64,000 nt of DNA from Escherichia coli (GCF_002854065.1 NZ_CP024147.1), one strand, 5' to 3'. Counted from the stretch's first letter, positions 24,998 through 44,547 are shown. Program-made: numbers and translations. Notes: generated by a model from the letters alone, not told the origin.

Positions 24998-26209
24998 ATG
25001 GCTAAGAATATTCCATTCAAACTGATTCTTGAAAAAGCAAAAGATTACCAGACGGATATGACTCGCTTCCTGCGCGACATGGTTGCTATTCCCAGTGAAA
25101 GCTGCGACGAGAAACGCGTAGTACATCGTATTAAAGAAGAGATGGAAAAAGTCGGCTTCGATAAAGTTGAAATCGACCCGATGGGTAACGTTCTCGGTTA
25201 TATCGGCCACGGCCCGCGTCTGGTGGCAATGGACGCTCATATCGATACCGTCGGCATTGGCAACATCAAAAACTGGGACTTCGATCCGTACGAAGGCATG
25301 GAAACTGATGAGCTGATCGGTGGTCGCGGGACTTCCGACCAGGAAGGCGGCATGGCATCTATGGTTTATGCCGGTAAAATCATTAAAGACCTCGGTCTGG
25401 AAGATGAATATACCCTGCTGGTTACCGGTACTGTGCAGGAAGAAGACTGCGACGGTCTGTGCTGGCAGTACATTATTGAACAATCCGGCATTCGCCCGGA
25501 ATTTGTGGTCAGTACCGAACCAACCGACTGCCAGGTATACCGTGGTCAGCGCGGTCGTATGGAAATTCGTATTGATGTTCAGGGTGTTAGCTGCCACGGT
25601 TCTGCGCCAGAACGCGGTGACAACGCCATTTTCAAAATGGGTCCGATTCTTGGCGAATTACAAGAACTCTCCCAACGTCTGGGTTATGACGAATTCCTCG
25701 GCAAAGGCACCCTCACCGTTTCTGAAATCTTCTTCACATCCCCAAGCCGTTGCGCTGTAGCAGATAGCTGCGCCGTCTCTATTGACCGCCGTCTGACCTG
25801 GGGCGAAACCTGGGAAGGCGCGCTGGACGAAATCCGCGCCCTGCCTGCAGTACAGAAAGCTAACGCGGTTGTTTCTATGTACAACTACGACCGTCCGTCC
25901 TGGACTGGCCTGGTTTACCCAACCGAATGCTACTTCCCGACCTGGAAAGTGGAAGAAGATCACTTCACCGTTAAAGCACTGGTGAATGCCTACGAAGGGC
26001 TGTTTGGCAAAGCGCCGGTTGTTGATAAGTGGACCTTCTCAACTAACGGCGTATCTATCATGGGCCGTCACGGCATTCCGGTGATCGGCTTTGGCCCGGG
26101 TAAAGAACCTGAAGCGCATGCACCTAACGAAAAAACCTGGAAATCTCACCTGGTGACCTGTGCCGCGATGTACGCTGCAATCCCGTTAAGCTGGCTGGCA
26201 ACCGAATAA
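24998..26209 (+). CDS. ygeY: M20/ArgE/DapE-family metallopeptidase or amidohydrolase
   Basis: 403-aa ORF with M20-type metal-binding regions. Confidence 0.9.
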
Positions 26210-26226
26210 TTACTCTTCACTTATTC

Positions 26227-26251
26227 CCCTCCGGTTCGCCGGAGGGTTTTT
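26227..26251 (+). terminator. Intrinsic terminator or attenuator between ygeY and hyuA
   Basis: Stem CCCTCCGG/CCGGAGGG with TTCG loop, then TTTTT; the hyuA GGAG Shine-Dalgarno (26252-26255) follows directly. Confidence 0.6.
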
Positions 26252-26261
26252 GGAGTTTGCT

Positions 26262-27647: not shown

Positions 27648-27694
27648 CCACTGCCAGGGATCTATACACAATCAAGAATGATGAGTGAGGAAAA

Positions 27695-28627
27695 ATGAGT
27701 AAGAAAATTGTTCTCGCCCTGGGCGGGAATGCGCTGGGCGATGACCTGGCCGGACAAATGAAAGCGGTAAAAATTACTTCTCAGGCAATTGTTGATTTAA
27801 TTGCCCAGGGACATGAAGTTATCGTCACTCATGGTAACGGGCCGCAGGTGGGCATGATTAACCAGGCCTTTGAAGCTGCCGCAAAAACTGAAGCACACTC
27901 GCCAATGCTGCCGATGTCTGTCTGTGTTGCCTTAAGTCAGGGTTATATTGGTTACGATCTACAAAACGCTTTAAGAGAAGAACTGCTTTCTCGTGGCATT
28001 AATAAACCGGTAGCAACGCTGGTTACCCAGGTCGAAGTCGACGCTAACGATCCGGCATTCCTCAACCCGACCAAGCCGATCGGTTCGTTCTTTACCGAGC
28101 AAGAAGCAGAGCAACTGACAAAACAGGGTTACACTCTGAAAGAAGATGCTGGTCGCGGCTATCGCCGTGTTGTTGCCTCGCCAAAACCGGTTGATATCAT
28201 TGAAAAAGAAACGGTTAAAGCGTTGGTAGAAGCAGGCCAGGTAGTGATTACCGTTGGCGGTGGTGGTATCCCTGTTATTCGTGAAGGTAACCATCTGCGT
28301 GGTGCCAGCGCGGTTATCGATAAAGACTGGGCCAGCGCCCGTTTAGCAGAAATGATTGATGCCGATATGCTGATCATTCTGACTGCGGTAGAAAAAGTGG
28401 CCATTAACTTCGGTAAAGAGAATGAACAGTGGCTCGATCGCCTGTCATTAAGTGATGCTGAACGCTTTATCGAAGAAGGTCATTTTGCGAAAGGTTCTAT
28501 GCTGCCTAAAGTGGAAGCTGCCGCCTCGTTTGCTCGCTCTCGCGCAGGTCGTGAAGCACTGATTACCGTATTGAGCAAAGCGAAAGAAGGGATTGAAGGC
28601 AAAACCGGAACGGTGATTTGTCAGTAA
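27695..28627 (+). CDS. yqeA: Carbamate kinase-like protein
   Basis: 310-aa ORF starting MSKKIVLALGGNALG (amino-acid-kinase-family N-terminus). Confidence 0.9.
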   Translation: MSKKIVLALGGNALGDDLAGQMKAVKITSQAIVDLIAQGHEVIVTHGNGPQVGMINQAFEAAAKTEAHSPMLPMSVCVALSQGYIGYDLQNALREELLSRGINKPVATLVTQVEVDANDPAFLNPTKPIGSFFTEQEAEQLTKQGYTLKEDAGRGYRRVVASPKPVDIIEKETVKALVEAGQVVITVGGGGIPVIREGNHLRGASAVIDKDWASARLAEMIDADMLIILTAVEKVAINFGKENEQWLDRLSLSDAERFIEEGHFAKGSMLPKVEAAASFARSRAGREALITVLSKAKEGIEGKTGTVICQ

Positions 28628-28633: not shown

Positions 28634-28664
28634 GGCCGGGTGGGTAATACCATCCGGCCATTTT
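28634..28664 (+). terminator. Intrinsic terminator downstream of yqeA
   Basis: 10-bp stem GGCCGGGTGG/CCATCCGGCC (one G-U pair), then ATTTTCATTT. Confidence 0.6.
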
Positions 28665-28667
28665 CAT

Positions 28668-30293
28668 TTAAGCCACTTCCAGCACTTCTTTTGTCGCTTT
28701 CACGCCCTGATGCATCAACATCATTAACGCCTCAAGTACGCCGCCGCCAATCGCCCGGGCTTTATCAGAAACGCTGGTGAAATCAGCGGTTTCACCACGA
28801 GGATCGATATCACCAATTTTAAAACCACCAACCACTGCCAGGCCGTCGTTCAACAAGCCACGCACCATCCCCGTCAACGGTGCTTTAATTTCATGCTCAC
28901 CAATCCAGGCAATCACATCGCCCTCTTTCGCCAGAACGCCTAATTTCACGTTGGATCGCATAATGCCTGCAGCAGGAGCACGGATCACCCGTCGGGTGGT
29001 ATGCCCCATAATATTGCCAGGAACACCGGTATTCTCCTGCGCACAACCAGAGTAAATCACCTGACCGAGCCAGTGCCCGCGATTTGTTTCAATTACCGCA
29101 TGACAATCCTTCCCAGCAGTAAAGCCCGGCCCAAGCGCGATTGTTACTGGTGCCATATCTGCCCGCGTTCCCAAATTCTGTTTCGCCAGAATAGCGTCCA
29201 CCACGCAAAGCGGTTTCAGTTCATCAAGCAATGAACAGGCGGGATCTACCATCACAGGGATGAATCCGCGTTCGGTAAGTTTCATCGCTTCCGCAGAGCT
29301 GGTTGTCAGGCGAGCAGTGACGCCTTCGACCGTCATTTCGCCATCGAACACGGCCTGGGCAAACGCCACGGTACAACGAATCACTGTCGGTTTTTCCACT
29401 TCCAGCATGATCACTTTAAAACCCGCATGATACAGACGTAGCGCCACACCACTGGCGATATCCCCCGCACCGCGAATCACCACCAGCTGGTGTCCGGAAG
29501 GATGAGAAGGTTTCATCATCAGCCCACCCGGCGCGTTATTTTTCACCTGTAATATTTCTGCCAGCACGCTGATGGCGATCTCCTGCGGCGTTTCCGCACC
29601 TATGTTGTAACCAACGGGCGCATGTAAACGGGCAATATGTTCTTCAGCCACGCCTTTCTCACGCAATTGACGCAGGAAAAGCTGAACCTTGCGACGACTT
29701 GCCAGCAACCCCAACCATGCAATGGGCTGTTCAATGAGTTTGTCGAGGGCTTCACGATCCTGATTATTCGTGGCAATCAGGACAAAATTATCAGGGCGAA
29801 TATCCAGTGCTTCCACTGCCGCACCAAACGACTCAGCATGGAGAAGCGTGGTTGATGGTGGGAATAGTTCAGGATTGAGGCTTTCGCGATAAATATCAGC
29901 AACGGCAATATCAAATCCTAATAGCGCCGCACTCTGGGCTATCGCCCGGTTGACATGCCCCGCGCCAATCAACACCAGACGTGGACGCATACCATGGACG
30001 CTGATAAATACTGACATTGCACCTCCACAATCTGACCCGACAGCATCCGCACCGTTACGAGCCATACGTCCATGGAATAATCGCGGCTTACGTTCCTGCA
30101 ATGCCTGAAGCGACTCTTCAATCACCTTCCGCTCAACCATTCCGCCACCAATTGTACCGACGATAGAACCATCGGCGCGCACTAACATTTGTGCAGAATG
30201 GCGGGGAGTCGAGCCTCGGCTATCAACAATTTGCGCCATCGCAAACGGACAATTTTGCTCTTCGAGTTTTGCAGCCTCTGTGAAAATATTCAT
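28668..30293 (-). CDS. yqeB: XdhC/CoxI-family accessory protein (putative selenium-dependent molybdenum hydroxylase maturation factor)
   Basis: 541-aa ORF with Rossmann-like NAD-binding segments; family and function assignment from established comparative genomics, not shown by sequence alone. Confidence 0.85.
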   Translation of the reverse strand: MNIFTEAAKLEEQNCPFAMAQIVDSRGSTPRHSAQMLVRADGSIVGTIGGGMVERKVIEESLQALQERKPRLFHGRMARNGADAVGSDCGGAMSVFISVHGMRPRLVLIGAGHVNRAIAQSAALLGFDIAVADIYRESLNPELFPPSTTLLHAESFGAAVEALDIRPDNFVLIATNNQDREALDKLIEQPIAWLGLLASRRKVQLFLRQLREKGVAEEHIARLHAPVGYNIGAETPQEIAISVLAEILQVKNNAPGGLMMKPSHPSGHQLVVIRGAGDIASGVALRLYHAGFKVIMLEVEKPTVIRCTVAFAQAVFDGEMTVEGVTARLTTSSAEAMKLTERGFIPVMVDPACSLLDELKPLCVVDAILAKQNLGTRADMAPVTIALGPGFTAGKDCHAVIETNRGHWLGQVIYSGCAQENTGVPGNIMGHTTRRVIRAPAAGIMRSNVKLGVLAKEGDVIAWIGEHEIKAPLTGMVRGLLNDGLAVVGGFKIGDIDPRGETADFTSVSDKARAIGGGVLEALMMLMHQGVKATKEVLEVA

Positions 30294-30340
30294 ACCAACC
30301 TCAATGGATATCCTTTCAGTAACCCGGAATACCCGGGCCG

Positions 30341-31111
30341 CTAATTCACAAATCTGCGCGCGATTGCAGGATGTTCTTGTATATCGCCCAGCCAGATTGC
30401 CTCTACGTCATGTTGTTGCAGCGGTTGAAGGAGCTCGCTTTGTGCAATCGCATTCTCACATTGAGAAAAACGGTTAATGAACCAGACTCGCCGACAACCT
30501 TGCGGTACGTTTTTAAACGCCCCCTGAGGGTGGCGAACCAGCGCAACGAGATCGCTCAGTTGCAAGGTTGCATCAGGTGTTAACCCGGTAATATCAGCAA
30601 ACTGCGACCAGCGATGGACATTTTCTGTGCTCACTTTCGCGCCCAAAGTATGTCCTCCCATCACAGCAATCACGCAGCAACTGCTTTTGGGTATGCAAGG
30701 TTCGTGCTCATCAGGCGCTTTTAACGGCATTCCACGCGAGCCATCTGCTTCAATGAGAATTACGTCACACTCTGGTCGTTGCACCAGTGCATCAATCGCT
30801 TCTGGCGTAAATCCCTGCACTTTTCCCTGGTTCGCTTTCCAGCTGTGAAAACAAAATGAAATGGGGGATGTAAGAGACGCATGAGGAAGCATGGCGGGAT
30901 CACGACAGAAAACCACGGGCCAGTGTGACTTTGGCATAAACATATGTGTCGTCGTAGTGATTAACACACGCCTGCCGCGAGTCTGGAGCAGTTCTGCCAG
31001 CCAAAAAAGCAAGCTGGTTTTCCCCCCAGCACCAACAACAGAAATCACAGTGGGACGTTTCTGCGCACCTAAATCAATGAATAATGCCGATGGGTCAACT
31101 ATACTTTTCAC
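30341..31111 (-). CDS. yqeC: Putative selenium-dependent hydroxylase accessory protein YqeC (P-loop protein)
   Basis: 256-aa ORF with N-terminal Walker A (VVGAGGKTSL). Confidence 0.85.
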   Translation of the reverse strand: MKSIVDPSALFIDLGAQKRPTVISVVGAGGKTSLLFWLAELLQTRGRRVLITTTTHMFMPKSHWPVVFCRDPAMLPHASLTSPISFCFHSWKANQGKVQGFTPEAIDALVQRPECDVILIEADGSRGMPLKAPDEHEPCIPKSSCCVIAVMGGHTLGAKVSTENVHRWSQFADITGLTPDATLQLSDLVALVRHPQGAFKNVPQGCRRVWFINRFSQCENAIAQSELLQPLQQHDVEAIWLGDIQEHPAIARRFVN

Positions 31112-31213
31112 GAGTCTTTATGACCTCTCTGGGATAAATTACCCCCAACTTAATCCATCAGGAAGTAACGCAATTATCAGGCGTTATTAGCCCCTATAAA
31201 TAATGGAACCACT

Positions 31214-31792
31214 ATGTCAGCCATCGACTGTATAATTACCGCTGCCGGATTATCATCAAGAATGGGGCAATGGAAAATGATGTTACCCTGGCAACAGGGA
31301 ACAATTCTTGATACAAGTATCAAAAATGCGTTGCAGTTTTGTAGCCGAATTATTTTAGTCACCGGCTATCGTGGTAATGAACTGCACGAACGTTATGCGA
31401 ACCAGAGTAATATCACTATTATTCACAACCCAGATTATGCCCAGGGTTTACTAACATCAGTCAAGGCCGCAGTACCCGCAGTGCAAACAGAACATTGTTT
31501 TCTCACCCACGGTGACATGCCAACCCTCACCATTGATATTTTTAGAAAAATCTGGTCGTTACGAAATGATGGCGCAATACTGCCACTCCATAATGGCATC
31601 CCCGGCCATCCGATTTTAGTGTCAAAACCATGCTTGATGCAGGCATTCCAGCGACCCAATGTCACCAATATGCGTCAGGCACTCCTTATGGGAGATCATT
31701 ATTCCGTCGAAATAGAAAATGCAGAAATAATTTTAGATATTGATACTCCGGACGACTTTATTACAGCGAAGAAAAGGTATACTGAAATTTAG
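31214..31792 (+). CDS. mocA: Molybdenum cofactor cytidylyltransferase (MobA-like nucleotidyltransferase)
   Basis: 192-aa ORF with the N-terminal nucleotide-binding loop (ITAAGLSSRMG); K-12 synonym ygfJ. Confidence 0.88.
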   Translation: MSAIDCIITAAGLSSRMGQWKMMLPWQQGTILDTSIKNALQFCSRIILVTGYRGNELHERYANQSNITIIHNPDYAQGLLTSVKAAVPAVQTEHCFLTHGDMPTLTIDIFRKIWSLRNDGAILPLHNGIPGHPILVSKPCLMQAFQRPNVTNMRQALLMGDHYSVEIENAEIILDIDTPDDFITAKKRYTEI

Positions 31793-32016
31793 AAAACGTA
31801 GTTAAACGATTGCGTTCAAATATTTAACCCCTCCAGCACTCTTTATCATAATGATAAGGAATCACTGATTTTGAGAAAAGAGAAAAAGTGATAAATGGGC
31901 TGGCAATAATAATTTTCAGGAGTGATTTTAATTCTCATTTGGCACCTGTGAGTTCATTCACAAAAAGCCCTTAAGTTTCGAGCCGCCTCACATTTTTTTA
32001 TATTTCCCGCCAAACC

Positions 32017-32032
32017 TGGCAAGAGTGGTGCG
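32017..32032 (+). promoter_or_regulatory. Candidate sigma-54 promoter upstream of ygfK
   Basis: TGGCAAGAGTGGTGCG: GG and GC at canonical spacing, -12 region GTGC; about 85 bp upstream of ygfK. Confidence 0.35.
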
Positions 32033-32113
32033 ATTGTTGCTCTATCCCCCTAAACCACCGGATTTCTCAACACCGGTCACTCAATGATATCTGTATAAGC
32101 TAAGGAGAGGGTT

Positions 32114-35100
32114 ATGGGGGATATTATGCGTCCCATTCCGTTTGAGGAACTTTTGACGCGCATATTTGATGAATACCAACAACAACGCTCAATCTTTGGT
32201 ATTCCCGAGCAACAGTTTTACTCACCCGTAAAAGGTAAAACTGTTAGCGTCTTCGGTGAAACCTGTGCCACTCCCGTCGGCCCTGCCGCTGGCCCGCACA
32301 CGCAGCTCGCGCAAAATATTGTCACTTCCTGGCTGACTGGCGGACGCTTCATCGAACTAAAAACCGTCCAAATTCTTGACCGCCTGGAGCTGGAAAAGCC
32401 TTGTATCGATGCCGAAGACGAGTGCTTTAACACCGAATGGTCTACCGAATTTACCCTGCTTAAAGCCTGGGATGAATACCTCAAAGCCTGGTTTGCCCTG
32501 CACCTTCTCGAAGCGATCTTCCAGCCTTCTGATTCCGGTAAATCGTTCATCTTTAATATGAGCGTTGGTTACAACCTCGAAGGTATTAAGCAACCGCCGA
32601 TGCAACAGTTCATCGACAATATGATGGACGCATCTGACCATCCGAAATTCGCGCAATATCGCGATACGCTGAATAAATTACTCCAGGATGACGCATTTTT
32701 AGCCCGCCACGGATTGCAGGAAAAACGCGAAAGCTTGCAAGCCTTACCCGCTCGCATCCCCACCAGTATGGTGCAGGGCGTCACCCTCTCCACCATGCAC
32801 GGCTGTCCTCCGCATGAAATCGAAGCCATTTGCCGCTACATGCTGGAAGAAAAAGGGCTCAACACCTTTGTCAAACTTAACCCGACCTTACTCGGGTACG
32901 CGCGTGTTCGTGAGATCCTCGATGTCTGCGGTTTCGGTTACATAGGCTTAAAAGAAGAGTCATTTGATCACGACCTCAAGCTGACGCAAGCACTGGAAAT
33001 GCTGGAACGCCTGATGGCACTGGCAAAAGAAAAATCACTCGGCTTTGGCGTAAAACTGACTAACACTCTCGGCACCATCAACAATAAAGGCGCACTGCCC
33101 GGTGAAGAGATGTATATGTCAGGCCGTGCGCTGTTCCCGCTCTCCATCAATGTTGCAGCAGTTCTCTCTCGCGCCTTTGACGGCAAACTGCCCATTTCTT
33201 ATTCCGGTGGTGCCAGTCAGCTGACTATCCGCGATATTTTTGATACAGGTATTCGCCCTATTACTATGGCAACCGACCTGCTGAAACCTGGCGGCTATCT
33301 GCGCTTAAGTGCCTGCATGCGCGAGCTGGAAGGCTCCGACGCCTGGGGACTTGACCATGTTGACGTCGAACGACTGAACAGACTGGCAGCAGACGCGTTA
33401 ACCATGGAATACACCCAGAAACACTGGAAGCCAGAAGAGCGTATTGAAGTGGCAGAAGACCTGCCGCTGACCGACTGCTACGTTGCCCCCTGTGTTACTG
33501 CCTGCGCTATCAAGCAAGATATTCCGGAATACATCCGTCTGCTTGGCGAACACCGCTATGCCGACGCGCTGGAACTCATCTACCAACGCAACGCCCTACC
33601 TGCCATTACCGGTCATATTTGCGATCACCAGTGCCAATACAACTGTACCCGCCTGGATTACGACAGTGCGCTGAATATCCGCGAACTGAAAAAAGTCGCG
33701 CTGGAAAAAGGTTGGGATGAATATAAGCAACGTTGGCACAAACCAGCCGGTTCTGGTTCACGCCATCCGGTTGCCGTGATTGGTGCAGGTCCGGCGGGTC
33801 TGGCAGCAGGTTACTTTCTTGCCAGAGCGGGCCATCCGGTTACGCTGTTTGAACGCGAAGCCAATGCAGGCGGCGTGGTGAAAAATATCATCCCTCAGTT
33901 CCGTATTCCTGCAGAGTTAATTCAGCACGATATCGATTTTATTGCCGCTCACGGCGTGAAATTTGAGTATGGCTGCCCACCCGATTTAACCGTTGAACAG
34001 TTAAAAAATCAGGGCTTCCATTATGTTCTGATTGCCACAGGCACCGACAAAAATAGCGGTGTGAAACTGGCGGGCGACAACCAAAATGTCTGGAAATCAC
34101 TCCCCTTCCTGCGTGAATACAACAAGGGTACAGCGCTCAAGCTGGGCAAACATGTGGTCGTTGTCGGGGCGGGTAACACCGCAATGGACTGCGCTCGTGC
34201 GGCGTTACGCGTTCCAGGCGTAGAAAAAGCAACGATCGTTTACCGTCGTTCACTGCAAGAGATGCCCGCATGGCGCGAAGAGTATGAAGAAGCGTTGCAC
34301 GACGGCGTGGAGTTCCGTTTCCTGAACAATCCGGAACGTTTCGATGCTGATGGCACCTTAACCTTGCGCGTTATGTCGCTTGGCGAACCGGATGAGAAAG
34401 GTCGTCGTCGTCCGGTTGAAACCAACGAAACAGTAACACTGCTTGTAGACAGCCTGATCACCGCCATTGGTGAACAGCAGGATACTGAAGCCCTGAATGC
34501 GATGGGCGTGCCGCTGGACAAAAACGGCTGGCCAGACGTCGACCATAATGGCGAAACTCGTCTGACTGACGTCTTTATGATCGGCGACGTACAGCGCGGA
34601 CCATCCTCCATTGTCGCTGCTGTCGGAACCGCGCGTCGGGCGACCGATGCCATCCTTAGTCGGGAAAATATCCGTTCCCACCAGAACGATAAATACTGGA
34701 ACAACGTCAATCCGGCGGAAATCTATCAACGTAAAGGCGATATCTCTATCACGCTGGTGAACAGTGACGATCGTGACGCGTTTGTCGCCCAGGAAGCCGC
34801 TCGCTGCCTCGAATGTAACTACGTTTGCAGCAAGTGTGTGGATGTCTGCCCGAACCGCGCCAACGTCTCCATTGCGGTCCCAGGCTTCCAGAACCGTTTC
34901 CAGACGCTGCACCTCGACGCTTACTGTAACGAATGCGGCAACTGCGCTCAGTTCTGTCCGTGGAACGGTAAACCATACAAAGACAAAATCACCGTCTTCA
35001 GCCTGGCGCAAGACTTTGATAACAGCAGCAACCCAGGCTTCCTTGTGGAAGATTGCCGGGTACGAGTACGTCTGAATAACCAAAGCTGGGTGTTAAACAT

Positions 35101-35212
35101 CGACAGCAAAGGTCAGTTTAACAACGTACCACCGGAGCTGAACGATATGTGCCGCATCATCAGCCATGTCCACCAGCATCATCATTATATGCTGGGCCGC
35201 GTGGAGGTGTAA
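32114..35212 (+). CDS. ygfK: Large Fe-S/flavin oxidoreductase (putative selenate reductase-associated subunit)
   Basis: 1032-aa ORF with FAD/NAD(P) dinucleotide-binding motifs ([12 protein letters not shown]; VVVGAGNTAMD) and C-terminal ferredoxin-like Cys clusters. Confidence 0.9.
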   Translation: MGDIMRPIPFEELLTRIFDEYQQQRSIFGIPEQQFYSPVKGKTVSVFGETCATPVGPAAGPHTQLAQNIVTSWLTGGRFIELKTVQILDRLELEKPCIDAEDECFNTEWSTEFTLLKAWDEYLKAWFALHLLEAIFQPSDSGKSFIFNMSVGYNLEGIKQPPMQQFIDNMMDASDHPKFAQYRDTLNKLLQDDAFLARHGLQEKRESLQALPARIPTSMVQGVTLSTMHGCPPHEIEAICRYMLEEKGLNTFVKLNPTLLGYARVREILDVCGFGYIGLKEESFDHDLKLTQALEMLERLMALAKEKSLGFGVKLTNTLGTINNKGALPGEEMYMSGRALFPLSINVAAVLSRAFDGKLPISYSGGASQLTIRDIFDTGIRPITMATDLLKPGGYLRLSACMRELEGSDAWGLDHVDVERLNRLAADALTMEYTQKHWKPEERIEVAEDLPLTDCYVAPCVTACAIKQDIPEYIRLLGEHRYADALELIYQRNALPAITGHICDHQCQYNCTRLDYDSALNIRELKKVALEKGWDEYKQRWHKPAGSGSRHPVAVIGAGPAGLAAGYFLARAGHPVTLFEREANAGGVVKNIIPQFRIPAELIQHDIDFIAAHGVKFEYGCPPDLTVEQLKNQGFHYVLIATGTDKNSGVKLAGDNQNVWKSLPFLREYNKGTALKLGKHVVVVGAGNTAMDCARAALRVPGVEKATIVYRRSLQEMPAWREEYEEALHDGVEFRFLNNPERFDADGTLTLRVMSLGEPDEKGRRRPVETNETVTLLVDSLITAIGEQQDTEALNAMGVPLDKNGWPDVDHNGETRLTDVFMIGDVQRGPSSIVAAVGTARRATDAILSRENIRSHQNDKYWNNVNPAEIYQRKGDISITLVNSDDRDAFVAQEAARCLECNYVCSKCVDVCPNRANVSIAVPGFQNRFQTLHLDAYCNECGNCAQFCPWNGKPYKDKITVFSLAQDFDNSSNPGFLVEDCRVRVRLNNQSWVLNIDSKGQFNNVPPELNDMCRIISHVHQHHHYMLGRVEV

Positions 35213-35214
35213 TC

Positions 35215-36543
35215 ATGTTGATTCTGAAGAATGTCACCGCAGTGCAGTTACACCCGGCGAAAGTGCAGGAAGGCGTTGATATCGCTATCGAAAATGATGT
35301 GATTGTCGCTATCGGAGATGCCCTGACGCAACGCTATCCCGATGCCAGCTACAAAGAGATGCATGGTCGGATTGTGATGCCGGGAATTGTCTGCTCGCAC
35401 AACCATTTTTACTCGGGGCTTTCCCGCGGAATTATGGCAAACATCGCCCCTTGCCCGGATTTCATCTCAACGCTGAAAAATCTCTGGTGGCGGCTCGATC
35501 GCGCCCTTGATGAAGAGTCGCTCTATTACAGCGGACTGATTTGTTCCCTGGAAGCGATTAAGAGCGGATGTACATCGGTTATCGATCACCATGCCTCTCC
35601 GGCGTATATCGGCGGGTCGCTCTCCACATTGCGCGACGCATTTTTAAAAGTTGGCCTGCGCGCGATGACCTGTTTTGAAACTACTGACCGTAACAACGGC
35701 ATCAAAGAGTTGCAGGAAGGTGTAGAAGAAAACATCCGCTTCGCCCGTCAGATTGATGAGGCGAAGAAAGCAGCAACCGAGCCGTATCTGGTGGAAGCAC
35801 ATATCGGTGCTCACGCGCCGTTTACCGTGCCAGATGCCGGTCTGGAGATGCTGCGTGAAGCCGTGAAAGCCACAGGCCGTGGTTTGCATATTCACGCTGC
35901 GGAAGACCTTTACGACGTTTCCTACAGTCACCACTGGTACGGCAAAGACCTGCTGGCACGACTGGCGCAATTCGATCTCATCGACAGCAAAACGCTGGTC
36001 GCTCATGGGCTGTACTTGTCGAAAGATGACATCGCCCTACTCAATCAGCGCGATGCGTTCCTGGTGCATAACGCCCGTTCAAACATGAACAACCATGTCG
36101 GCTACAACCATCACCTTAGCGACATCCGCAATCTGGCATTGGGAACAGATGGCATTGGTTCGGACATGTTTGAAGAGATGAAATTTGCCTTCTTTAAACA
36201 TCGCGACGCGGGTGGTCCGCTGTGGCCTGACAGTTTTGCCAAAGCCCTGACTAACGGTAACGAACTGATGAGCCGCAACTTTGGCGCGAAATTTGGGCTT
36301 CTGGAAGCCGGTTACAAAGCTGATTTAACCATTTGCGATTACAACTGGCCGACGCCGCTGCTGGCAGACAATATCGCCGGGCATATCGCTTTCGGTATGG
36401 GCTCAGGCAGCGTTCACAGCGTGATGGTCAATGGTGTGATGGTCTATGAAGACCGTCAGTTTAACTTCGATTGCGATTCCATTTATGCACAAGCCAGAAA
36501 AGCCGCTGCCAGTATGTGGCGTCGGATGGATGCGCTGGCATAA
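35215..36543 (+). CDS. ssnA: Amidohydrolase-superfamily protein (chlorohydrolase/deaminase-like)
   Basis: 442-aa ORF from MLILKNVTAVQ with the metal-binding HNHF motif; ATG lies 2 nt after the ygfK stop. Confidence 0.9.
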   Translation: MLILKNVTAVQLHPAKVQEGVDIAIENDVIVAIGDALTQRYPDASYKEMHGRIVMPGIVCSHNHFYSGLSRGIMANIAPCPDFISTLKNLWWRLDRALDEESLYYSGLICSLEAIKSGCTSVIDHHASPAYIGGSLSTLRDAFLKVGLRAMTCFETTDRNNGIKELQEGVEENIRFARQIDEAKKAATEPYLVEAHIGAHAPFTVPDAGLEMLREAVKATGRGLHIHAAEDLYDVSYSHHWYGKDLLARLAQFDLIDSKTLVAHGLYLSKDDIALLNQRDAFLVHNARSNMNNHVGYNHHLSDIRNLALGTDGIGSDMFEEMKFAFFKHRDAGGPLWPDSFAKALTNGNELMSRNFGAKFGLLEAGYKADLTICDYNWPTPLLADNIAGHIAFGMGSGSVHSVMVNGVMVYEDRQFNFDCDSIYAQARKAAASMWRRMDALA

Positions 36544-36593
36544 ATGACAGATGCCCTCTTCCCGCAGGGAAGAGGGTTAAATAAGGAAAGAAG

Positions 36594-37373
36594 ATGATTG
36601 AACAATTTTTCAGGCCCGACTCTGTCGAACAGGCGCTGGAACTGAAGCGCCGCTACCAGGATGAAGCCGTCTGGTTCGCCGGGGGCAGCAAACTCAATGC
36701 TACACCAACCCGTACCGATAAAAAGATTGCCATCTCCTTACAGGATCTGGAACTGGACTGGGTTGACTGGGATAACGGTGCACTGCGGATTGGCGCAATG
36801 TCTCGCTTGCAGCCACTGCGTGATGCGCGATTTATTCCTGCAGCGCTGCGTGAAGCCCTCGGTTTTGTTTACTCACGCCATGTTCGTAATCAGTCGACCA
36901 TTGGTGGTGAAATCGCCGCCCGGCAGGAAGAGTCGGTGCTGCTTCCCGTCCTGCTGGCACTGGATGCTGAACTGGTTTTTGGCAACGGCGAAACGCTGTC
37001 AATCGAGGACTACCTGACCTGCCCATGCGATCGCCTGCTAACCGAAATTATCATTAAAGATCCGTATCGCACCTGTGCGACCCGCAAAATTAGCCGTTCT
37101 CAGGCAGGTTTAACCGTCGTGACGGCAGCCGTTGCAATAACAGACCACGACGGTATGCGAATTGCGCTGGATGGCGTCGCCAGTAAAGCACTGCGTCTGC
37201 ACGATATCGAAAAACAAAATCTGGAAGGCAATGCACTTGAACAGGCTGTCGCCAACGCCATTTTCCCGCAGGAAGATTTGCGGGGCAGCGTGGCCTATAA
37301 ACGCTATATCACGGGAGTTCTGGTAGCCGACCTGTATGCCGACTGCCAACAGGCTGGGGAGGAAGCCGTATGA
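36594..37373 (+). CDS. ygfM: FAD-binding subunit of a molybdo-enzyme (CO dehydrogenase flavoprotein-like)
   Basis: 259-aa ORF; FAD-binding domain (WFAGGSKL). Confidence 0.88.
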   Translation: MIEQFFRPDSVEQALELKRRYQDEAVWFAGGSKLNATPTRTDKKIAISLQDLELDWVDWDNGALRIGAMSRLQPLRDARFIPAALREALGFVYSRHVRNQSTIGGEIAARQEESVLLPVLLALDAELVFGNGETLSIEDYLTCPCDRLLTEIIIKDPYRTCATRKISRSQAGLTVVTAAVAITDHDGMRIALDGVASKALRLHDIEKQNLEGNALEQAVANAIFPQEDLRGSVAYKRYITGVLVADLYADCQQAGEEAV

Positions 37374-40240
37374 TCATCCACTTTACTTTAAATGGCGCGC
37401 CTCAGGAGCTAACCGTTAATCCAGGCGAAAACGTGCAAAAGCTATTGTTTAACATGGGAATGCACTCTGTACGCAACAGTGATGATGGCTTCGGGTTTGC
37501 CGGTTCTGACGCAATAATCTTTAACGGTAATATCGTTAACGCGTCCTTGCTTATTGCCGCACAGTTAGAGAAGGCAGATATTCGTACCGCAGAATCTCTG
37601 GGCAAATGGAACGAGTTAAGTCTGGTTCAACAGGCAATGGTTGATGTTGGCGTGGTGCAGTCTGGTTATAACGATCCAGCTGCAGCTCTGATTATCACCG
37701 ATCTTCTCGATCGCATCGCCGCACCTACCCGCGTAGAGATCGACGACGCGCTCTCAGGTCTGTTTAGCCGCGATGCTGGCTGGCAGCAATACTATCAGGT
37801 CATTGAACTGGCGGTTGCACGTAAAAATAATCCGCAGGCCACCATTGATATCGCTCCGACTTTCCGTGACGACCTTGAAGTCATTGGCAAGCATTATCCT
37901 AAAACTGATGCCGCAAAAATGGTGCAGGCGAAGCCCTGCTATGTTGAAGACCGCGTAACGGCTGACGCCTGCGTCATTAAAATGTTACGTAGCCCACACG
38001 CTCACGCACTGATTACTCATCTGGATGTCAGCAAAGCTGAAGCCTTACCGGGCGTCGTTCACGTTATTACTTATCTGAATTGCCCGGATATCTACTATAC
38101 CCCGGGGGGGCAGAGCGCGCCGGAACCGTCACCGCTTGACCGCCGTATGTTCGGCAAGAAAATGCGTCACGTCGGCGATCGTGTTGCTGCGGTGGTCGCA
38201 GAAAGTGAAGAAATTGCGCTCGAAGCACTGAAGCTTATCGACGTTGAATATGAAGTGCTTAAGCCGGTAATGTCGATCGACGAAGCAATGGCGGAAGATG
38301 CGCCTGTCGTGCACGATGAACCGGTGGTGTATGTTGCTGGTGCGCCAGATACTCTGGAAGACGATAACAGCCATGCAGCCCAGCGCGGCGAGCATATGAT
38401 CATTAACTTCCCGATCGGTTCTCGCCCCCGCAAAAATATCGCCGCCAGTATTCATGGTCATATTGGCGATATGGACAAAGGCTTTGCCGATGCCGATGTG
38501 ATCATTGAGCGAACCTATAACTCAACGCAGGCGCAGCAGTGCCCGACTGAAACACATATCTGCTTTACCCGCATGGATGGCGATCGTCTGGTTATCCACG
38601 CCTCCACCCAGGTACCATGGCACTTACGCCGCCAGGTCGCGCGCCTCGTGGGCATGAAACAGCATAAAGTTCATGTCATTAAAGAGCGAGTTGGCGGCGG
38701 TTTTGGTTCCAAACAGGACATCCTGCTGGAAGAAGTGTGCGCATGGGCAACCTGCGTGACCGGGCGTCCGGTACTGTTCCGCTACACCCGTGAAGAAGAG
38801 TTTATTGCTAACACCTCTCGTCACGTCGCGAAAGTCACCGTCAAACTGGGAGCGAAAAAAGATGGTCGCCTGACGGCAGTGAAGATGGATTTCCGCGCCA
38901 ACACTGGCCCTTACGGCAACCACTCACTCACCGTACCGTGTAACGGACCGGCGCTGTCGCTGCCCTTATATCCGTGCGATAACGTCGATTTCCAGGTCAC
39001 CACCTACTACAGCAACATTTGCCCAAATGGTGCTTATCAGGGTTATGGCGCACCGAAAGGTAACTTCGCTATCACCATGGCATTAGCGGAACTTGCTGAA
39101 CAGTTACAGATCGACCAACTGGAAATTATCGAACGTAACCGGGTACACGAAGGGCAAGAGCTGAAAATTCTCGGTGCAATCGGTGAAGGTAAAGCGCCAA
39201 CCTCAGTTCCTTCCGCCGCCAGCTGCGCACTGGAAGAGATCCTGCGTCAGGGTCGCGAGATGATCCAATGGTCGTCACCGAAACCGCAAAATGGTGACTG
39301 GCACATCGGTCGCGGCGTCGCCATTATCATGCAGAAATCGGGTATCCCGGATATCGATCAGGCTAACTGCATGATCAAACTGGAATCGGACGGCACCTTT
39401 ATCGTTCATTCTGGCGGTGCGGATATTGGTACTGGTCTGGATACTGTAGTGACGAAACTGGCAGCAGAAGTGCTGCACTGCCCACCGCAGGACGTGCATG
39501 TTATCTCCGGTGATACCGATCATGCGTTGTTTGATAAAGGCGCATATGCCTCGTCCGGTACTTGCTTCTCGGGTAACGCGGCGCGTTTGGCAGCGGAAAA
39601 TCTGCGGGAGAAAATTCTGTTCCACGGCGCGCAAATGTTGGGTGAGCCAGTGGCAGATGTTCAACTAGCAACGCCGGGCGTCGTGCGCGGCAAGAAAGGC
39701 GAAGTTAGTTTCGGGGATATTGCCCATAAAGGCGAAACCGGCACCGGCTTTGGTTCACTGGTGGGAACTGGCAGTTATATCACGCCTGATTTCGCTTTCC
39801 CGTATGGCGCAAACTTCGCTGAAGTTGCCGTCAACACGCGTACGGGTGAAATCCGCCTGGATAAATTCTACGCCTTGCTGGACTGCGGTACACCGGTCAA
39901 TCCAGAGTTAGCGTTGGGACAAATCTACGGGGCCACCCTGCGTGCTATCGGCCACAGTATGAGCGAAGAGATCATTTATGACGCCGAAGGTCACCCGTTA
40001 ACGCGTGATTTACGCAGTTACGGCGCACCGAAAATTGGTGACATTCCGCGTGATTTCCGCGCTGTGTTGGTGCCGAGCGACGATAAAGTCGGCCCGTTCG
40101 GGGCGAAATCGATCTCGGAAATTGGTGTAAATGGCGCAGCTCCGGCGATTGCTACCGCAATTCACGATGCCTGCGGCATCTGGTTACGCGAATGGCATTT
40201 CACACCGGAGAAAATACTCACCGCGCTGGAAAAAATATAA
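37370..40240 (+). CDS. xdhD: Fused 2Fe-2S/molybdopterin hydroxylase (xanthine dehydrogenase-family, putative selenium-dependent)
   Basis: 956-aa ORF with molybdopterin-binding large-subunit homology (GGGFGSKQD); ATGA overlap with ygfM. Confidence 0.9.
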   Translation: MIIHFTLNGAPQELTVNPGENVQKLLFNMGMHSVRNSDDGFGFAGSDAIIFNGNIVNASLLIAAQLEKADIRTAESLGKWNELSLVQQAMVDVGVVQSGYNDPAAALIITDLLDRIAAPTRVEIDDALSGLFSRDAGWQQYYQVIELAVARKNNPQATIDIAPTFRDDLEVIGKHYPKTDAAKMVQAKPCYVEDRVTADACVIKMLRSPHAHALITHLDVSKAEALPGVVHVITYLNCPDIYYTPGGQSAPEPSPLDRRMFGKKMRHVGDRVAAVVAESEEIALEALKLIDVEYEVLKPVMSIDEAMAEDAPVVHDEPVVYVAGAPDTLEDDNSHAAQRGEHMIINFPIGSRPRKNIAASIHGHIGDMDKGFADADVIIERTYNSTQAQQCPTETHICFTRMDGDRLVIHASTQVPWHLRRQVARLVGMKQHKVHVIKERVGGGFGSKQDILLEEVCAWATCVTGRPVLFRYTREEEFIANTSRHVAKVTVKLGAKKDGRLTAVKMDFRANTGPYGNHSLTVPCNGPALSLPLYPCDNVDFQVTTYYSNICPNGAYQGYGAPKGNFAITMALAELAEQLQIDQLEIIERNRVHEGQELKILGAIGEGKAPTSVPSAASCALEEILRQGREMIQWSSPKPQNGDWHIGRGVAIIMQKSGIPDIDQANCMIKLESDGTFIVHSGGADIGTGLDTVVTKLAAEVLHCPPQDVHVISGDTDHALFDKGAYASSGTCFSGNAARLAAENLREKILFHGAQMLGEPVADVQLATPGVVRGKKGEVSFGDIAHKGETGTGFGSLVGTGSYITPDFAFPYGANFAEVAVNTRTGEIRLDKFYALLDCGTPVNPELALGQIYGATLRAIGHSMSEEIIYDAEGHPLTRDLRSYGAPKIGDIPRDFRAVLVPSDDKVGPFGAKSISEIGVNGAAPAIATAIHDACGIWLREWHFTPEKILTALEKI

Positions 40241-40249: not shown

Positions 40250-40278
40250 GGCCGCTTCGGCGGCCTGTTTCTCTGTTT
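40250..40278 (+). terminator. Intrinsic terminator downstream of xdhD
   Basis: Stem GGCCGC/GCGGCC with TTCG loop, then TGTTTCTCTGTTT. Confidence 0.7.
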
Positions 40279-40404: not shown

Positions 40405-41805
40405 ATGTCTGATATAAACCATGCAGGTTCTGACCTTATATTTGAACTGGAGGATCGCCCTCCCTTTCATCAGGCTCTCGTTGGTGCCATTACCCATCTG
40501 TTGGCAATTTTCGTTCCGATGGTAACCCCCGCGTTAATCGTGGGTGCGGCCTTACAGCTTTCCGCTGAAACAACCGCCTATCTTGTTTCTATGGCGATGA
40601 TCGCCTCTGGTATTGGTACCTGGTTACAAGTAAACCGCTACGGCATCGTCGGTTCTGGCCTACTCTCAATTCAGTCAGTCAATTTTTCATTTGTTACGGT
40701 CATGATTGCGCTGGGCAGCAGCATGAAAAGCGACGGTTTTCACGAAGAGTTAATCATGTCGTCGCTTCTCGGCGTCTCCTTCGTTGGCGCATTTCTGGTT
40801 GTCGGATCTTCATTTATCTTGCCCTATTTACGTCGGGTTATTACGCCTACCGTCAGCGGTATTGTGGTACTGATGATCGGCTTAAGCCTGATTAAAGTCG
40901 GCATTATCGATTTTGGTGGAGGATTTGCAGCCAAAAGCAGCGGTACGTTCGGCAATTACGAACATCTCGGCGTTGGTTTATTGGTTTTAATTGTGGTGAT
41001 CGGCTTTAACTGCTGTCGCAGTCCGTTGCTACGCATGGGAGGGATCGCCATTGGGCTATGTGTCGGCTATATCGCATCGTTATGCCTGGGCATGGTGGAT
41101 TTCAGCAGTATGCGCAATTTGCCGTTAATCACCATCCCGCATCCGTTCAAATACGGCTTTAGTTTTAGCTTCCATCAGTTCCTGGTGGTTGGCACGATTT
41201 ATCTGCTTAGCGTGCTGGAAGCAGTCGGCGATATCACCGCCACGGCAATGGTTTCCCGCCGCCCCATTCAGGGGGAAGAGTATCAGTCCCGACTGAAAGG
41301 CGGCGTGCTGGCAGATGGTCTGGTTTCTGTTATCGCCTCCGCTGTTGGTTCATTACCATTAACCACGTTTGCGCAAAATAATGGGGTTATTCAGATGACT
41401 GGCGTCGCTTCACGTTATGTCGGGCGAACCATCGCGGTAATGCTGGTTATCCTCGGCTTATTTCCGATGATTGGCGGCTTCTTCACGACCATTCCCTCGG
41501 CAGTTCTGGGAGGCGCAATGACGTTGATGTTTTCCATGATTGCCATCGCTGGGATTCGCATCATCATCACCAACGGATTAAAGCGGCGTGAAACACTTAT
41601 TGTCGCCACTTCTTTAGGTTTAGGGCTTGGCGTCTCCTACGATCCCGAAATTTTTAAAATATTGCCAGCCTCTATTTATGTATTAGTTGAAAACCCTATT
41701 TGTGCTGGCGGGTTAACTGCGATTTTATTAAATATTATCCTCCCTGGTGGCTACCGACAGGAAAACGTTCTGCCTGGTATTACCTCAGCGGAAGAGATGG
41801 ATTAA
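40405..41805 (+). CDS. xanQ: Xanthine permease (NCS2/NAT family)
   Basis: 466-aa ORF from MSDINHAGSDLIFELEDRPPF with AAGGAG Shine-Dalgarno; the track ORF has a 19-codon upstream extension. Confidence 0.92.
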   Translation: MSDINHAGSDLIFELEDRPPFHQALVGAITHLLAIFVPMVTPALIVGAALQLSAETTAYLVSMAMIASGIGTWLQVNRYGIVGSGLLSIQSVNFSFVTVMIALGSSMKSDGFHEELIMSSLLGVSFVGAFLVVGSSFILPYLRRVITPTVSGIVVLMIGLSLIKVGIIDFGGGFAAKSSGTFGNYEHLGVGLLVLIVVIGFNCCRSPLLRMGGIAIGLCVGYIASLCLGMVDFSSMRNLPLITIPHPFKYGFSFSFHQFLVVGTIYLLSVLEAVGDITATAMVSRRPIQGEEYQSRLKGGVLADGLVSVIASAVGSLPLTTFAQNNGVIQMTGVASRYVGRTIAVMLVILGLFPMIGGFFTTIPSAVLGGAMTLMFSMIAIAGIRIIITNGLKRRETLIVATSLGLGLGVSYDPEIFKILPASIYVLVENPICAGGLTAILLNIILPGGYRQENVLPGITSAEEMD

Positions 41806-41819
41806 CAGTAAAGGAGTCA

Positions 41820-43139: not shown

Positions 43140-43174
43140 TAATAAAACTTTAACATCCTCGTGAGGACATCATT

Positions 43175-44542: not shown

Positions 44543-44547
44543 TAGAT

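What the first reader, a model, noticed from the sequence alone, without database searches (positions are those of the whole stretch)
28668..40240. Gene set matching the selenium-dependent molybdenum hydroxylase signature
yqeB (XdhC/CoxI-like), yqeC (P-loop), mocA (cofactor cytidylyltransferase), ygfK, ssnA, ygfM and xdhD are adjacent. From established comparative genomics this combination marks molybdenum hydroxylases that use a labile selenium cofactor; sequence alone shows only the domain content and gene order. The substrate of the XdhD-type enzyme is not evident here.
Basis: established knowledge. Interest (0 to 1): 0.55.

Follow-up and report, generated by a model that had tools for sequence, protein, structure and literature searches.

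The report
Known E. coli urate-breakdown, selenium-linked gene cluster
This is the well-known E. coli gene cluster for anaerobic uric acid breakdown and its selenium-linked helper genes, so the finding is ordinary; however, its molybdenum enzyme XdhD has lost all the cysteines that normally hold its iron-sulfur clusters.

Summary
yqeB, yqeC, mocA, ygfK, ssnA, ygfM and xdhD lie intact at 28668-40240 in an E. coli chromosome. Each scores above the curated cut-off of its NCBIfam model.

The interpretation restates Haft & Self (2008), whose Table 1 lists this same locus. It is also out of date on the substrate. E. coli XdhD-YgfM reduces uric acid to 2,8-dioxopurine, and YgfK plus SsnA then reduce and open the ring (Li 2025). 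The Clostridium sporogenes counterpart is inactive when purified from a selD mutant (Liu 2025 preprint). C. difficile needs selD and yqeB but shows no yqeC phenotype. Selenium dependence of the E. coli enzyme has not been tested directly.

Six distant genomes confirm the yqeB-yqeC-mocA-hydroxylase linkage, including gene fusions. Structure models show YqeC as a metallocentre-assembly-type P-loop NTPase. The YqeB-specific domain is a Rossmann-like half plus a biotinyl-like half, with no invariant cysteine.

One unexpected result: all eight [2Fe-2S] cysteine ligands of XdhD are replaced. The replacements are conserved in 91 of 120 homologues, and 25 relatives keep all eight. No paper I read mentions this, and the route of electrons from FAD to molybdenum is unexplained.

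Verdict: already known, low interest.

The parts
28668..30293 (-). yqeB, 541 aa. N-terminal XdhC-like molybdenum-cofactor chaperone half (residues 12-247, nt 29553-30260) fused to the YqeB-specific TIGR03309 domain (residues 271-526, nt 28716-29483).
30341..31111 (-). yqeC, 256 aa, a P-loop NTPase with Walker A motif GAGGKTS at residues 27-33.
30694..30710 (-). Sigma-54 promoter inside yqeC that drives yqeB.
   Evidence: The published motif TGAGCACGAACCTTGCA is present verbatim. Bonocora 2015 showed that mutating it abolishes YqeB protein.
31214..31792 (+). mocA (ygfJ), the molybdenum cofactor cytidylyltransferase, which makes the cytosine dinucleotide form of the cofactor.
   Evidence: TIGR03310 214 bits against 186.
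31844..31856 (+). Palindrome TATCATAATGATA, 181 bp upstream of the ygfK -24 element. It is related to the TCTCATATTGATA motif shared by the xdhA, ygeW and ygfT sigma-54 upstream regions and is a candidate enhancer site.
   Evidence: The function is inferred only.
32025..32041 (+). Sigma-54 promoter of the ygfK-ssnA-ygfM-xdhD operon.
   Evidence: The published ChIP-seq motif GTGGTGCGATTGTTGCT is present verbatim.
32114..35212 (+). ygfK, 1032 aa, an Fe-S flavoprotein that acts as the 2,8-dioxopurine reductase. RefSeq still names it 'putative selenate reductase subunit'.
   Evidence: Cysteine motifs for 4Fe-4S clusters at residues 898-948. Nearest solved relatives are NfnA, GltD-like proteins and dihydropyrimidine dehydrogenase. 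Activity shown with SsnA by Li 2025.
35215..36543 (+). ssnA, 442 aa, an amidohydrolase that opens the reduced purine ring.
   Evidence: (TIGR03314 737 bits against 455).
36594..37373 (+). ygfM, 259 aa, the FAD-binding subunit. It overlaps xdhD by 4 bp.
   Evidence: It co-purifies with XdhD (Li 2025). Its four cysteines are not conserved in homologues.
37370..40240 (+). xdhD, 956 aa, the molybdenum subunit that reduces urate to 2,8-dioxopurine.
   Evidence: (TIGR03313 2117 bits against 1102). E606 and the catalytic-Glu equivalent E917 are present. No solved structure exists; the best PDB sequence match is 4-hydroxybenzoyl-CoA reductase alpha. Activity shown by Li 2025.
37370..37864 (+). Degenerate [2Fe-2S] domain of XdhD (residues 1-165). 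All eight cluster-ligating cysteines are replaced: D38, A44, D47, S59, S98, N101, S133, D135.
   Evidence: XdhD has no cysteine before residue 190. The same pattern occurs in 91 of 120 homologues, while 25 relatives keep all eight Cys. Pfam finds only a weak Fer2_2 match and no Fer2 match.
40250..40265 (+). Intrinsic-terminator-like hairpin GGCCGCTTCGGCGGCC directly after xdhD.
   Evidence: sequence.
28634..28659 (+). Terminator-like hairpin between the convergent genes arcC (yqeA) and yqeB.
20242..28627 (.). Rest of the pathway and its regulator: ygeV (20242-22020, -; sigma-54 activator), ygeW (22499-23686), ygeX/dpaL (23744-24940), ygeY (24998-26209), hyuA (26262-27647), yqeA/arcC (27695-28627). 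The ygeW sigma-54 promoter lies at 22389-22405.
   Evidence: Annotation; promoter; enzyme roles from Li 2025.
16540..20202 (+). xdhABC, the conventional three-subunit xanthine dehydrogenase. Its Fe-S subunit XdhC keeps all its cysteines. The sigma-54 promoter lies at 16468-16484.
40405..48869 (.). Flanking purine genes: xanQ, guaD, ghxQ, ygfS (44578-45066, -), ygfT (45066-46985, -), uacT (47421-48869, +). The ygfT sigma-54 motif lies at 47032-47048.

Best explanation
The region is the second half of the E. coli anaerobic (reductive) uric acid degradation locus, together with the genes that mature its molybdenum cofactor.

Shown in the literature for E. coli proteins: XdhD with its FAD subunit YgfM removes the C6 oxygen of urate to give 2,8-dioxopurine. 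YgfK (NAD(P)H, flavin, 4Fe-4S) reduces that product and SsnA hydrolyses the ring. The upstream genes hyuA, ygeW/yqeA, ygeY and ygeX finish the breakdown to pyruvate, ammonia and ATP.

Established: MocA makes the cytosine dinucleotide form of the molybdenum cofactor. The operons are transcribed from sigma-54 promoters. The activator is probably YgeV.

Inferred: YqeB holds the cofactor with its XdhC-like half. Its YqeB-specific half (Rossmann-like plus biotinyl-like) and the SIMIBI-class NTPase YqeC then install a labile selenium ligand on molybdenum, using SelD-derived selenium, before the cofactor is inserted into XdhD and possibly XdhA.

Unresolved: XdhD has no cysteine ligands for the two [2Fe-2S] clusters that normally connect FAD to molybdenum. 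The electron route into the active site therefore cannot be the canonical one.
For: Gene identity.

Pathway biochemistry on E. coli proteins and on xdhD and ygfK mutants: Li 2025.

Selenium: the C. sporogenes enzyme is inactive when purified from a selD mutant, and urate use needs Se and Mo. C. difficile needs selD and yqeB. E. coli MS 200-1 needs added Mo and Se to grow on urate. TIGR03309 is restricted to selD-positive genomes, and E. coli has selD, b1764.

Linkage tested here, in six distant loci. The YqeB domain is 55-59% identical to the E. coli one. YqeC is adjacent in 5 of 6 loci and a MocA-like gene lies nearby in 5 of 6. A xanthine-oxidase-family hydroxylase or urate-pathway genes lie within 10 kb in 5 of 6. 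Three fusions were seen: YqeC-MocA (Moorella), YqeB-MocA (L006) and XdhC-YqeB (E. coli).

Folds: YqeC resembles UreG, HypB and CooC-type assembly NTPases. The YqeB domain is Rossmann-like plus barrel-sandwich.

Regulation: all five published sigma-54 motifs are present verbatim.
Against: No experiment has tested selenium in E. coli XdhD. Li 2025 purified active enzyme from an overnight culture and reports no selenium supplement.

The E. coli selenium requirement for growth on urate could come from the selenoprotein formate dehydrogenase H, because urate use in E. coli is linked to formate.

Deleting yqeC gave no phenotype in C. difficile.

The YqeB domain has no invariant cysteine to carry selenium.

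The missing Fe-S ligands in XdhD conflict with the simple NADH to FAD to Fe-S to Mo scheme assumed in the papers. The published assay was an end-point assay at 10 uM enzyme with no kinetics.
Confidence: 0.75

Rival explanations
1. In E. coli the accessory genes mature a conventional sulfur-containing cofactor. YqeB acts simply as the XdhC-type chaperone shared by XdhABC and XdhD, and XdhD carries Mo=S rather than Mo=Se. The link to selenium is indirect.
For: The N-terminal half of YqeB is a clear XdhC homologue. Neumann and Leimkuhler proposed exactly this shared-chaperone role. Active XdhD was obtained with no reported selenium addition. No active-site residue distinguishes Se-dependent from S-dependent enzymes.
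Against: [quoted passage not shown] It is genetically required, like selD, in C. difficile. E. coli needs Se for growth on urate. The orthologous-function clostridial enzyme is dead without SelD.
Confidence: 0.2
2. YgfK-YgfM-XdhD form a selenate reductase. This is the older reading, and it survives in the RefSeq product name of YgfK.
For: RefSeq and NCBIfam still use the name 'putative selenate reductase subunit YgfK'. It goes back to Bebien 2002, as cited in Haft & Self.
Against: The purified proteins catalyse urate reduction and 2,8-dioxopurine reduction, and the mutants block urate catabolism. The genes sit inside a purine regulon with urate, xanthine and guanine transporters. Haft & Self already treated selenate reduction as the less likely alternative.
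Confidence: 0.03
3. Because it lacks an internal Fe-S wire, XdhD is re-reduced at or near the molybdenum site itself. This could be ping-pong 'transhydroxylase' chemistry with a second substrate, an external Fe-S partner such as YgfK or YgfS/YgfT, or aromatic-residue hopping. YgfM would then be mainly structural.
For: All eight Cys ligands are absent. The replacements D38, D47, S98 and N101 are nearly invariant in 63 diverse homologues, so this is a selected state and not decay. YgfM has no conserved cysteines that could hold a compensating cluster. Fe-S-rich YgfK, YgfS and YgfT are encoded in the same regulon. Formate-dependent urate use needs YgfT or AegA.
Against: Li 2025 report NADH-dependent product formation with only XdhD and co-purified YgfM. 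The xdhA mutant does not consume xanthine, so xanthine is unlikely to be a direct reductant of XdhD. ygfM is retained directly upstream of xdhD in the one cysteine-free locus examined outside E. coli (L010) as well as in E. coli itself. No structural model of the complex was made here.
Confidence: 0.3

Closest known systems
Selenium-cofactor trait / SDMH accessory set of Haft & Self 2008 (TIGR03309 YqeB, TIGR03172 YqeC, TIGR03310 YgfJ/MocA)
   Same: It is the same locus: E. coli b2875-b2881 are the type entries in Table 1 of that paper. All models match above their cut-offs.
   Different: Nothing differs in gene content. The E. coli YqeB is the XdhC-fused form, whereas most family members are about 270 aa and stand alone.
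2,8-dioxopurine dehydrogenase (DOPDH, XdhAC) of Clostridium sporogenes and the reductive urate pathway (Liu 2025 preprint; Li 2025)
   Same: It catalyses the same reaction, urate to 2,8-dioxopurine, followed by the same YgfK, SsnA, HyuA, YgeW, YgeY and YgeX steps.
   Different: The clostridial enzyme has Fe-S binding domains, has no FAD subunit, does not use NAD(P)H and was assayed with methyl viologen. E. coli XdhD has a YgfM FAD subunit, is reported to use NADH, and has no Fe-S cysteine ligands. SelD dependence has been shown only for the clostridial enzyme.
Rhodobacter capsulatus XDH with its XdhC chaperone
   Same: XdhD shares the xanthine-oxidase-family Mo domains (PDB 1jro, E 2e-53). The N-terminal half of YqeB is an XdhC homologue.
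   Different: XdhC, as described from my own knowledge of the Leimkuhler work, delivers a sulfurated cofactor. YqeB carries an extra 270-aa domain with no solved homologue as a whole.
4-hydroxybenzoyl-CoA reductase (PDB 1rm6) and Desulfovibrio gigas aldehyde oxidoreductase (1sij, 1dgj)
   Same: 4-HBCR alpha is the best solved sequence match (E 5.6e-80) and is also a reductive dehydroxylase. D. gigas AOR has the same fused layout, with the Fe-S domain N-terminal to the Mo domain.
   Different: Both bind two [2Fe-2S] clusters through cysteines, and XdhD cannot.
Nicotinate dehydrogenase of Eubacterium barkeri (PDB 3hrd)
   Same: It belongs to the same enzyme family. From my own knowledge of Wagener 2009, it is the one selenium-dependent member solved with a Mo=Se ligand.
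   Different: It uses a different substrate and has split Mo subunits. The sequence match is weaker (E 1e-44 over residues 360-597).

Membership tests
Selenium-dependent molybdenum hydroxylase (SDMH) system, genomic signature | YqeB-family protein (TIGR03309) present | tested here: met
   408.6 bits against cut-off 220, over residues 271-526.
Selenium-dependent molybdenum hydroxylase (SDMH) system, genomic signature | YqeC-family P-loop protein (TIGR03172 / PF19842) present and adjacent | tested here: met
   241 bits against cut-off 73; PF19842 E 3e-42; it lies 47 bp from yqeB.
Selenium-dependent molybdenum hydroxylase (SDMH) system, genomic signature | MocA/YgfJ cytidylyltransferase (TIGR03310) in the locus | tested here: met
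   214 bits against cut-off 186.
Selenium-dependent molybdenum hydroxylase (SDMH) system, genomic signature | Xanthine-oxidase-family molybdenum hydroxylase encoded nearby, with the linkage conserved across taxa | tested here: met
   xdhD and xdhABC lie in the window. In six distant YqeB loci, YqeC was adjacent in 5 of 6, and a hydroxylase or urate-pathway genes lay within 10 kb in 5 of 6.
Selenium-dependent molybdenum hydroxylase (SDMH) system, genomic signature | selD (selenophosphate synthetase) in the same genome | not testable with these tools
   selD is not in the 64-kb window. Haft & Self list E. coli selD as b1764, and Liu 2025 used E. coli MG1655 SelD as a query.
Selenium-dependent molybdenum hydroxylase, as an enzyme | Labile, non-selenocysteine selenium required for activity | not testable with these tools
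   This has been shown for the C. sporogenes enzyme and genetically in C. difficile. For E. coli there is only a Mo+Se growth requirement on urate. No in-frame UGA is needed, because all ORFs are uninterrupted.
Reductive urate (2,8-dioxopurine) pathway cluster | XdhD, YgfK, SsnA, HyuA, YgeW, YgeY and YgeX homologues encoded together | tested here: met
   All are present and intact between 22499 and 40240.
Reductive urate (2,8-dioxopurine) pathway cluster | Catalytic activities of the encoded enzymes | not testable with these tools
   Reported for E. coli proteins by Li 2025. The window's XdhD N-terminal 350 residues are 99% identical to the main E. coli cluster of 6144 sequences.
Canonical xanthine-oxidase-family Mo/Fe-S flavoprotein | Two MoCo-binding domains plus the catalytic glutamate | tested here: met
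   PF02738 E 4e-72 and PF20256 E 6e-68. E917 aligns with the GE motif of XdhA.
Canonical xanthine-oxidase-family Mo/Fe-S flavoprotein | Eight cysteines that ligate two [2Fe-2S] clusters | tested here: not met
   All eight are replaced (D38, A44, D47, S59, S98, N101, S133, D135), and there is no Cys before residue 190. The RefSeq name 'Mo/Fe-S-binding subunit' is therefore misleading for this protein.
Canonical xanthine-oxidase-family Mo/Fe-S flavoprotein | FAD-binding subunit or domain | tested here: met
   YgfM matches PF00941 at E 7e-20 and TIGR03312 at 487 bits.
Selenate reductase YgfKMN (name used in RefSeq/NCBIfam) | Selenate as the physiological substrate | not testable with these tools
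   The published activities are urate and 2,8-dioxopurine reduction. I did not file the locus under this name.

The most novel reading that the evidence does not exclude
E. coli XdhD and a large clade of relatives (91 of the 120 best homologues) are xanthine-oxidase-family enzymes that have lost both [2Fe-2S] clusters while keeping the domain and the FAD subunit. The replacement residues are conserved. Electrons must therefore reach molybdenum by a route not described for this enzyme family. Candidates are an external Fe-S partner, hopping through aromatic residues, or re-reduction at the Mo site. The published 'NADH to FAD to Mo' description of the first step of gut urate degradation would then be incomplete.
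Probability: 0.45. Interest if true: 0.6.

Novelty: already known. Interest (0 to 1): 0.28.

Why it matters
The cluster matters biologically. It encodes the anaerobic route by which gut bacteria remove uric acid, which is relevant to hyperuricaemia and gout. It also contains the only known genetic markers for the least understood form of biological selenium use. All of that is already published, however, for this very locus.

Two things remain open, and both could be tested directly in E. coli. The first is whether E. coli XdhD really carries selenium, and what YqeB and YqeC do chemically. The second is how a molybdenum hydroxylase with no iron-sulfur ligands receives its electrons.

The second point affects how the enzyme should be assayed and engineered, for example in the uricolytic probiotic strains now being built.

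Tried and rejected
1. Rfam scan of the whole window found only tRNA-Gly, and no RNA element in the locus.

2. A generic sigma-54 consensus search was not enriched over shuffles (46 found, 43 expected). Only the published motifs, found verbatim, are meaningful.

3. The sigma-70 promoter scan was not above chance (13 found, 11.9 expected).

4. I looked for a conserved cysteine in the YqeB domain that could carry selenium and found none.

5. I looked for a compensating Fe-S site in YgfM. Its four cysteines are not conserved in three homologues.

6. Sequence search of the PDB found no solved structure for the YqeB C-terminal domain, YqeC or XdhD itself.

7. I tried to read Xi, Schneider & Reitzer 2000 (PMC110974), which might comment on the XdhD cysteines, but it is not held. 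I therefore cannot exclude an earlier mention.

8. I assumed the window was colinear with strain CUWW06. That is wrong upstream of xdhA, and I corrected all coordinates.

9. I considered a transhydroxylase model with xanthine as the reductant and rated it low, because the xdhA mutant does not consume xanthine.

10. I did not locate selD in a genome record. It lies outside the window.

Full report
**What is there.**
The window is an E. coli chromosomal segment running from araE/kduD/yqeF to gcvP. The flagged stretch, 28668-40240, is 100% identical to E. coli CUWW06. It is present in 5185 of 5426 complete E. coli genomes. RefSeq annotates it as yqeB, yqeC, mocA, ygfK, ssnA, ygfM and xdhD.

All seven ORFs are intact and have the lengths annotated in RefSeq for CUWW06. 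Each exceeds the curated cut-off of its dedicated NCBIfam model. Pfam confirms the domain content.

**Context on both sides.**
The seven genes are the second half of a larger purine and urate regulon:
- xdhABC at 16540-20202.
- The sigma-54 activator ygeV at 20242-22020, on the minus strand.
- ygeW, ygeX/dpaL, ygeY, hyuA and yqeA/arcC at 22499-28627.
- Downstream of xdhD: xanQ, guaD, ghxQ, ygfS, ygfT and uacT.

All five sigma-54 binding motifs mapped by ChIP-seq in K-12 (Bonocora 2015) are present verbatim. They are xdhA at 16468, ygeW at 22389, ygfK at 32025, ygfT at 47032, and one inside yqeC at 30694-30710. The last was shown experimentally to be the promoter for yqeB.

Terminator-like hairpins close the ygfK-xdhD operon at 40250-40265 and separate arcC from yqeB at 28634-28659. 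ygfM and xdhD overlap by 4 bp, and ygfK and ssnA are 2 bp apart.

**What it does, from the literature.**
Since then the substrate has been found.

- Li et al. 2025 purified E. coli XdhD, which co-purified with a protein of about 30 kDa taken to be YgfM. They showed NADH-dependent conversion of urate to 2,8-dioxopurine.
- YgfK plus SsnA convert that product to ureidomethylhydantoin.
- HyuA, YgeW, YgeY and YgeX complete the path to pyruvate.
- xdhD and ygfK mutants behave as that scheme predicts.

Liu et al. 2025 (preprint) found the same pathway in C. sporogenes. The enzyme purified from a selD mutant was intact but inactive, and urate use needed both Se and Mo. Johnstone & Self 2024 showed that C. 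difficile needs selD and yqeB for growth on xanthine and urate, whereas a yqeC deletion had no phenotype. Kasahara et al. (preprint) saw a requirement for added Mo and Se when E. coli MS 200-1 grows on urate.

None of the papers I read tests selenium in the E. coli enzyme.

**Independent test of the signature.**
I searched with the YqeB-specific domain (residues 262-541). At least 8000 relatives came back. Most are stand-alone proteins of about 270 aa, and some are fused to XdhC domains. I then fetched six distant loci: Moorella, a Comamonadaceae MAG, an uncultured contig, Sphaerochaetaceae, Azotosporobacter and Psychromonas.

- The YqeB domain is 55-59% identical across these phyla. YqeC is only 28-34% identical.
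- YqeC is adjacent in 5 of 6 loci.
- A MocA-like nucleotidyltransferase is present in 5 of 6.
- A xanthine-oxidase-family hydroxylase or urate-pathway genes lie within 10 kb in 5 of 6.
- Three different fusions occur: YqeC-MocA (Moorella, 455 aa), YqeB-MocA (L006, 462 aa) and XdhC-YqeB (E. coli).
- The Sphaerochaetaceae locus has yqeC-yqeB followed by a class-V aminotransferase, a cysteine-desulfurase or selenocysteine-lyase-like protein.

These results support a shared role of all three accessory proteins on the cytosine dinucleotide cofactor.

**Structure-based inference on the accessory proteins.**
Neither YqeC nor the YqeB-specific domain has a solved relative by sequence.

The domain has many invariant Asp, Arg, Lys, His and Thr residues but no invariant cysteine. 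A conserved persulfide or perselenide carrier cysteine is therefore unlikely. A ligand-binding role, for cofactor, nucleotide or selenophosphate, fits better. This part is inference.

**The unexpected point.**
XdhD is annotated as a 'Mo/Fe-S-binding subunit', but it has no cysteine before residue 190. I aligned it with E. coli XdhC and three other Fe-S domains or subunits. All eight ligands of the two [2Fe-2S] clusters are replaced, by D38, A44, D47, S59, S98, N101, S133 and D135. Pfam finds only a weak Fer2_2 match and no Fer2 match.

This is not a strain artefact or random decay.
- Among the 120 best homologues of the N-terminal 350 residues, 91 share the cysteine-free pattern. They go down to 39% identity over the Fe-S-like domain (43% over the 350-residue query) and include spirochaetes and Oscillospiraceae.
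- D38, D47, S98 and N101 are almost invariant in 63 diverse members.
- 25 relatives at 35-45% identity over that domain keep all eight cysteines.
- In the three loci examined (one cysteine-free, L010; two cysteine-containing, L011 and L012), a ygfM-like FAD gene lies directly upstream with the same 4-bp overlap.
- YgfM has no conserved cysteines that could hold a replacement cluster.

In every characterised member of this family that I know of, electrons pass between FAD and molybdenum through these two clusters. That statement rests on my own knowledge of the family.

Li 2025, the Liu 2025 preprint and a 2025 commentary describe YgfM as the electron-transfer module and do not mention the missing ligands. 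Literature searches for XdhD with 2Fe-2S, and for ygfN, found nothing relevant. The published assay was an end-point assay with 10 uM enzyme, so slow long-range transfer cannot be excluded. How electrons reach the Mo site remains unexplained.

**Comparison with known systems and verdict.**
The locus is a member, in fact the reference member, of two published systems: the SDMH accessory signature and the reductive urate pathway cluster. It is not a canonical Mo/Fe-S flavoprotein, because the Fe-S feature was tested and is not met. The old selenate-reductase name is not supported.

The finding as written is already known. Its one open statement, that the substrate is unknown, has been answered. 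Selenium dependence of the E. coli enzyme is likely by homology and physiology, at roughly 0.7 in my estimate, but it is unproven. Interest is low for the finding itself. The cysteine-free Fe-S domain is the only item that might surprise a specialist.

Noticed in passing
window 37370-37864 (XdhD residues 1-165): All eight [2Fe-2S] cysteine ligands are replaced, and the replacement pattern is conserved in 91 of 120 homologues. 25 relatives keep all eight. None of the papers I read mentions this, and the RefSeq product name still says 'Fe-S-binding'.
   Followed up: yes
window 16358-16370(+), 22176-22188(-), 47214-47226(-), 31844-31856: The motif (T/A)CTCATATTGATA lies 110-213 bp upstream of the -24 elements of the xdhA, ygeW and ygfT sigma-54 promoters. 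A related palindrome lies 181 bp upstream of the ygfK promoter. There are 10 matches at up to 2 mismatches against 1.43 expected. It is a candidate YgeV enhancer site. The papers I read give no YgeV binding site.
   Followed up: partly
window 7420-16204: There are three IS1 copies: a direct pair 23 bp apart at 7420-8188 and 8212-8980, and an inverted copy at 15435-16204. IS2 lies at 12912-14242. Between them are remnants of the ETT2 type III secretion island: a truncated SctC secretin fragment at 8975-9922 and an InvF/EivF-like AraC regulator at 9919-10668. No complete RefSeq E. coli genome covers 80% or more of window 7000-16600 in one place.
   Followed up: partly
window 15435-16204: An IS1 copy is inserted between actS (ygeR) and xdhA, with a 9-bp target duplication. 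It lies 154 bp upstream of the candidate enhancer motif and 264 bp upstream of the xdhA sigma-54 promoter. The promoter itself is intact, but more distal regulation could be affected.
   Followed up: no
L004 8525-9892; L006 5550-6938: Natural fusions exist between YqeC and a MocA-like nucleotidyltransferase (Moorella, 455 aa), and between the YqeB domain and a MocA-like domain (462 aa). Many YqeC-family representatives of 440-475 aa suggest that the first fusion is common.
   Followed up: partly
L007 7958-10649: In a Sphaerochaetaceae MAG, yqeC-yqeB is followed directly by a class-V aminotransferase (NifS or selenocysteine-lyase-like). This is a possible selenium donor, and no hydroxylase lies on the 16-kb contig.
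   Followed up: no
L009 5055-8183 and 10898-13546: In Psychromonas sp. KJ10-10, the ygfK, hyuA and dpaL homologues are each split into several called genes. This is either pseudogene decay of the urate pathway or sequencing frameshifts.
   Followed up: no
window 32114-35212: RefSeq and NCBIfam still name YgfK 'putative selenate reductase subunit', although it has been shown to act as a 2,8-dioxopurine reductase. About 450 N-terminal residues have no Pfam match.
   Followed up: partly
window 35149-35215: The mechanical ORF for ssnA starts at a GTG at 35149 (464 aa) and overlaps the end of ygfK. The annotated start is the ATG at 35215 (442 aa), and the NCBIfam models align from residue 1-2 of that shorter form.
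   Followed up: partly
window 28668-40240: Only 118 of 5185 E. coli genomes are 99% or more identical over this stretch. The remaining 5067 are 95-99% identical, so the window comes from a sparsely sampled lineage.
   Followed up: no
window 14443-14513(-): tRNA-Gly is the only Rfam hit in the 64 kb. prfB, with its programmed frameshift, lies at about 51237-52335 according to the annotation.
   Followed up: no
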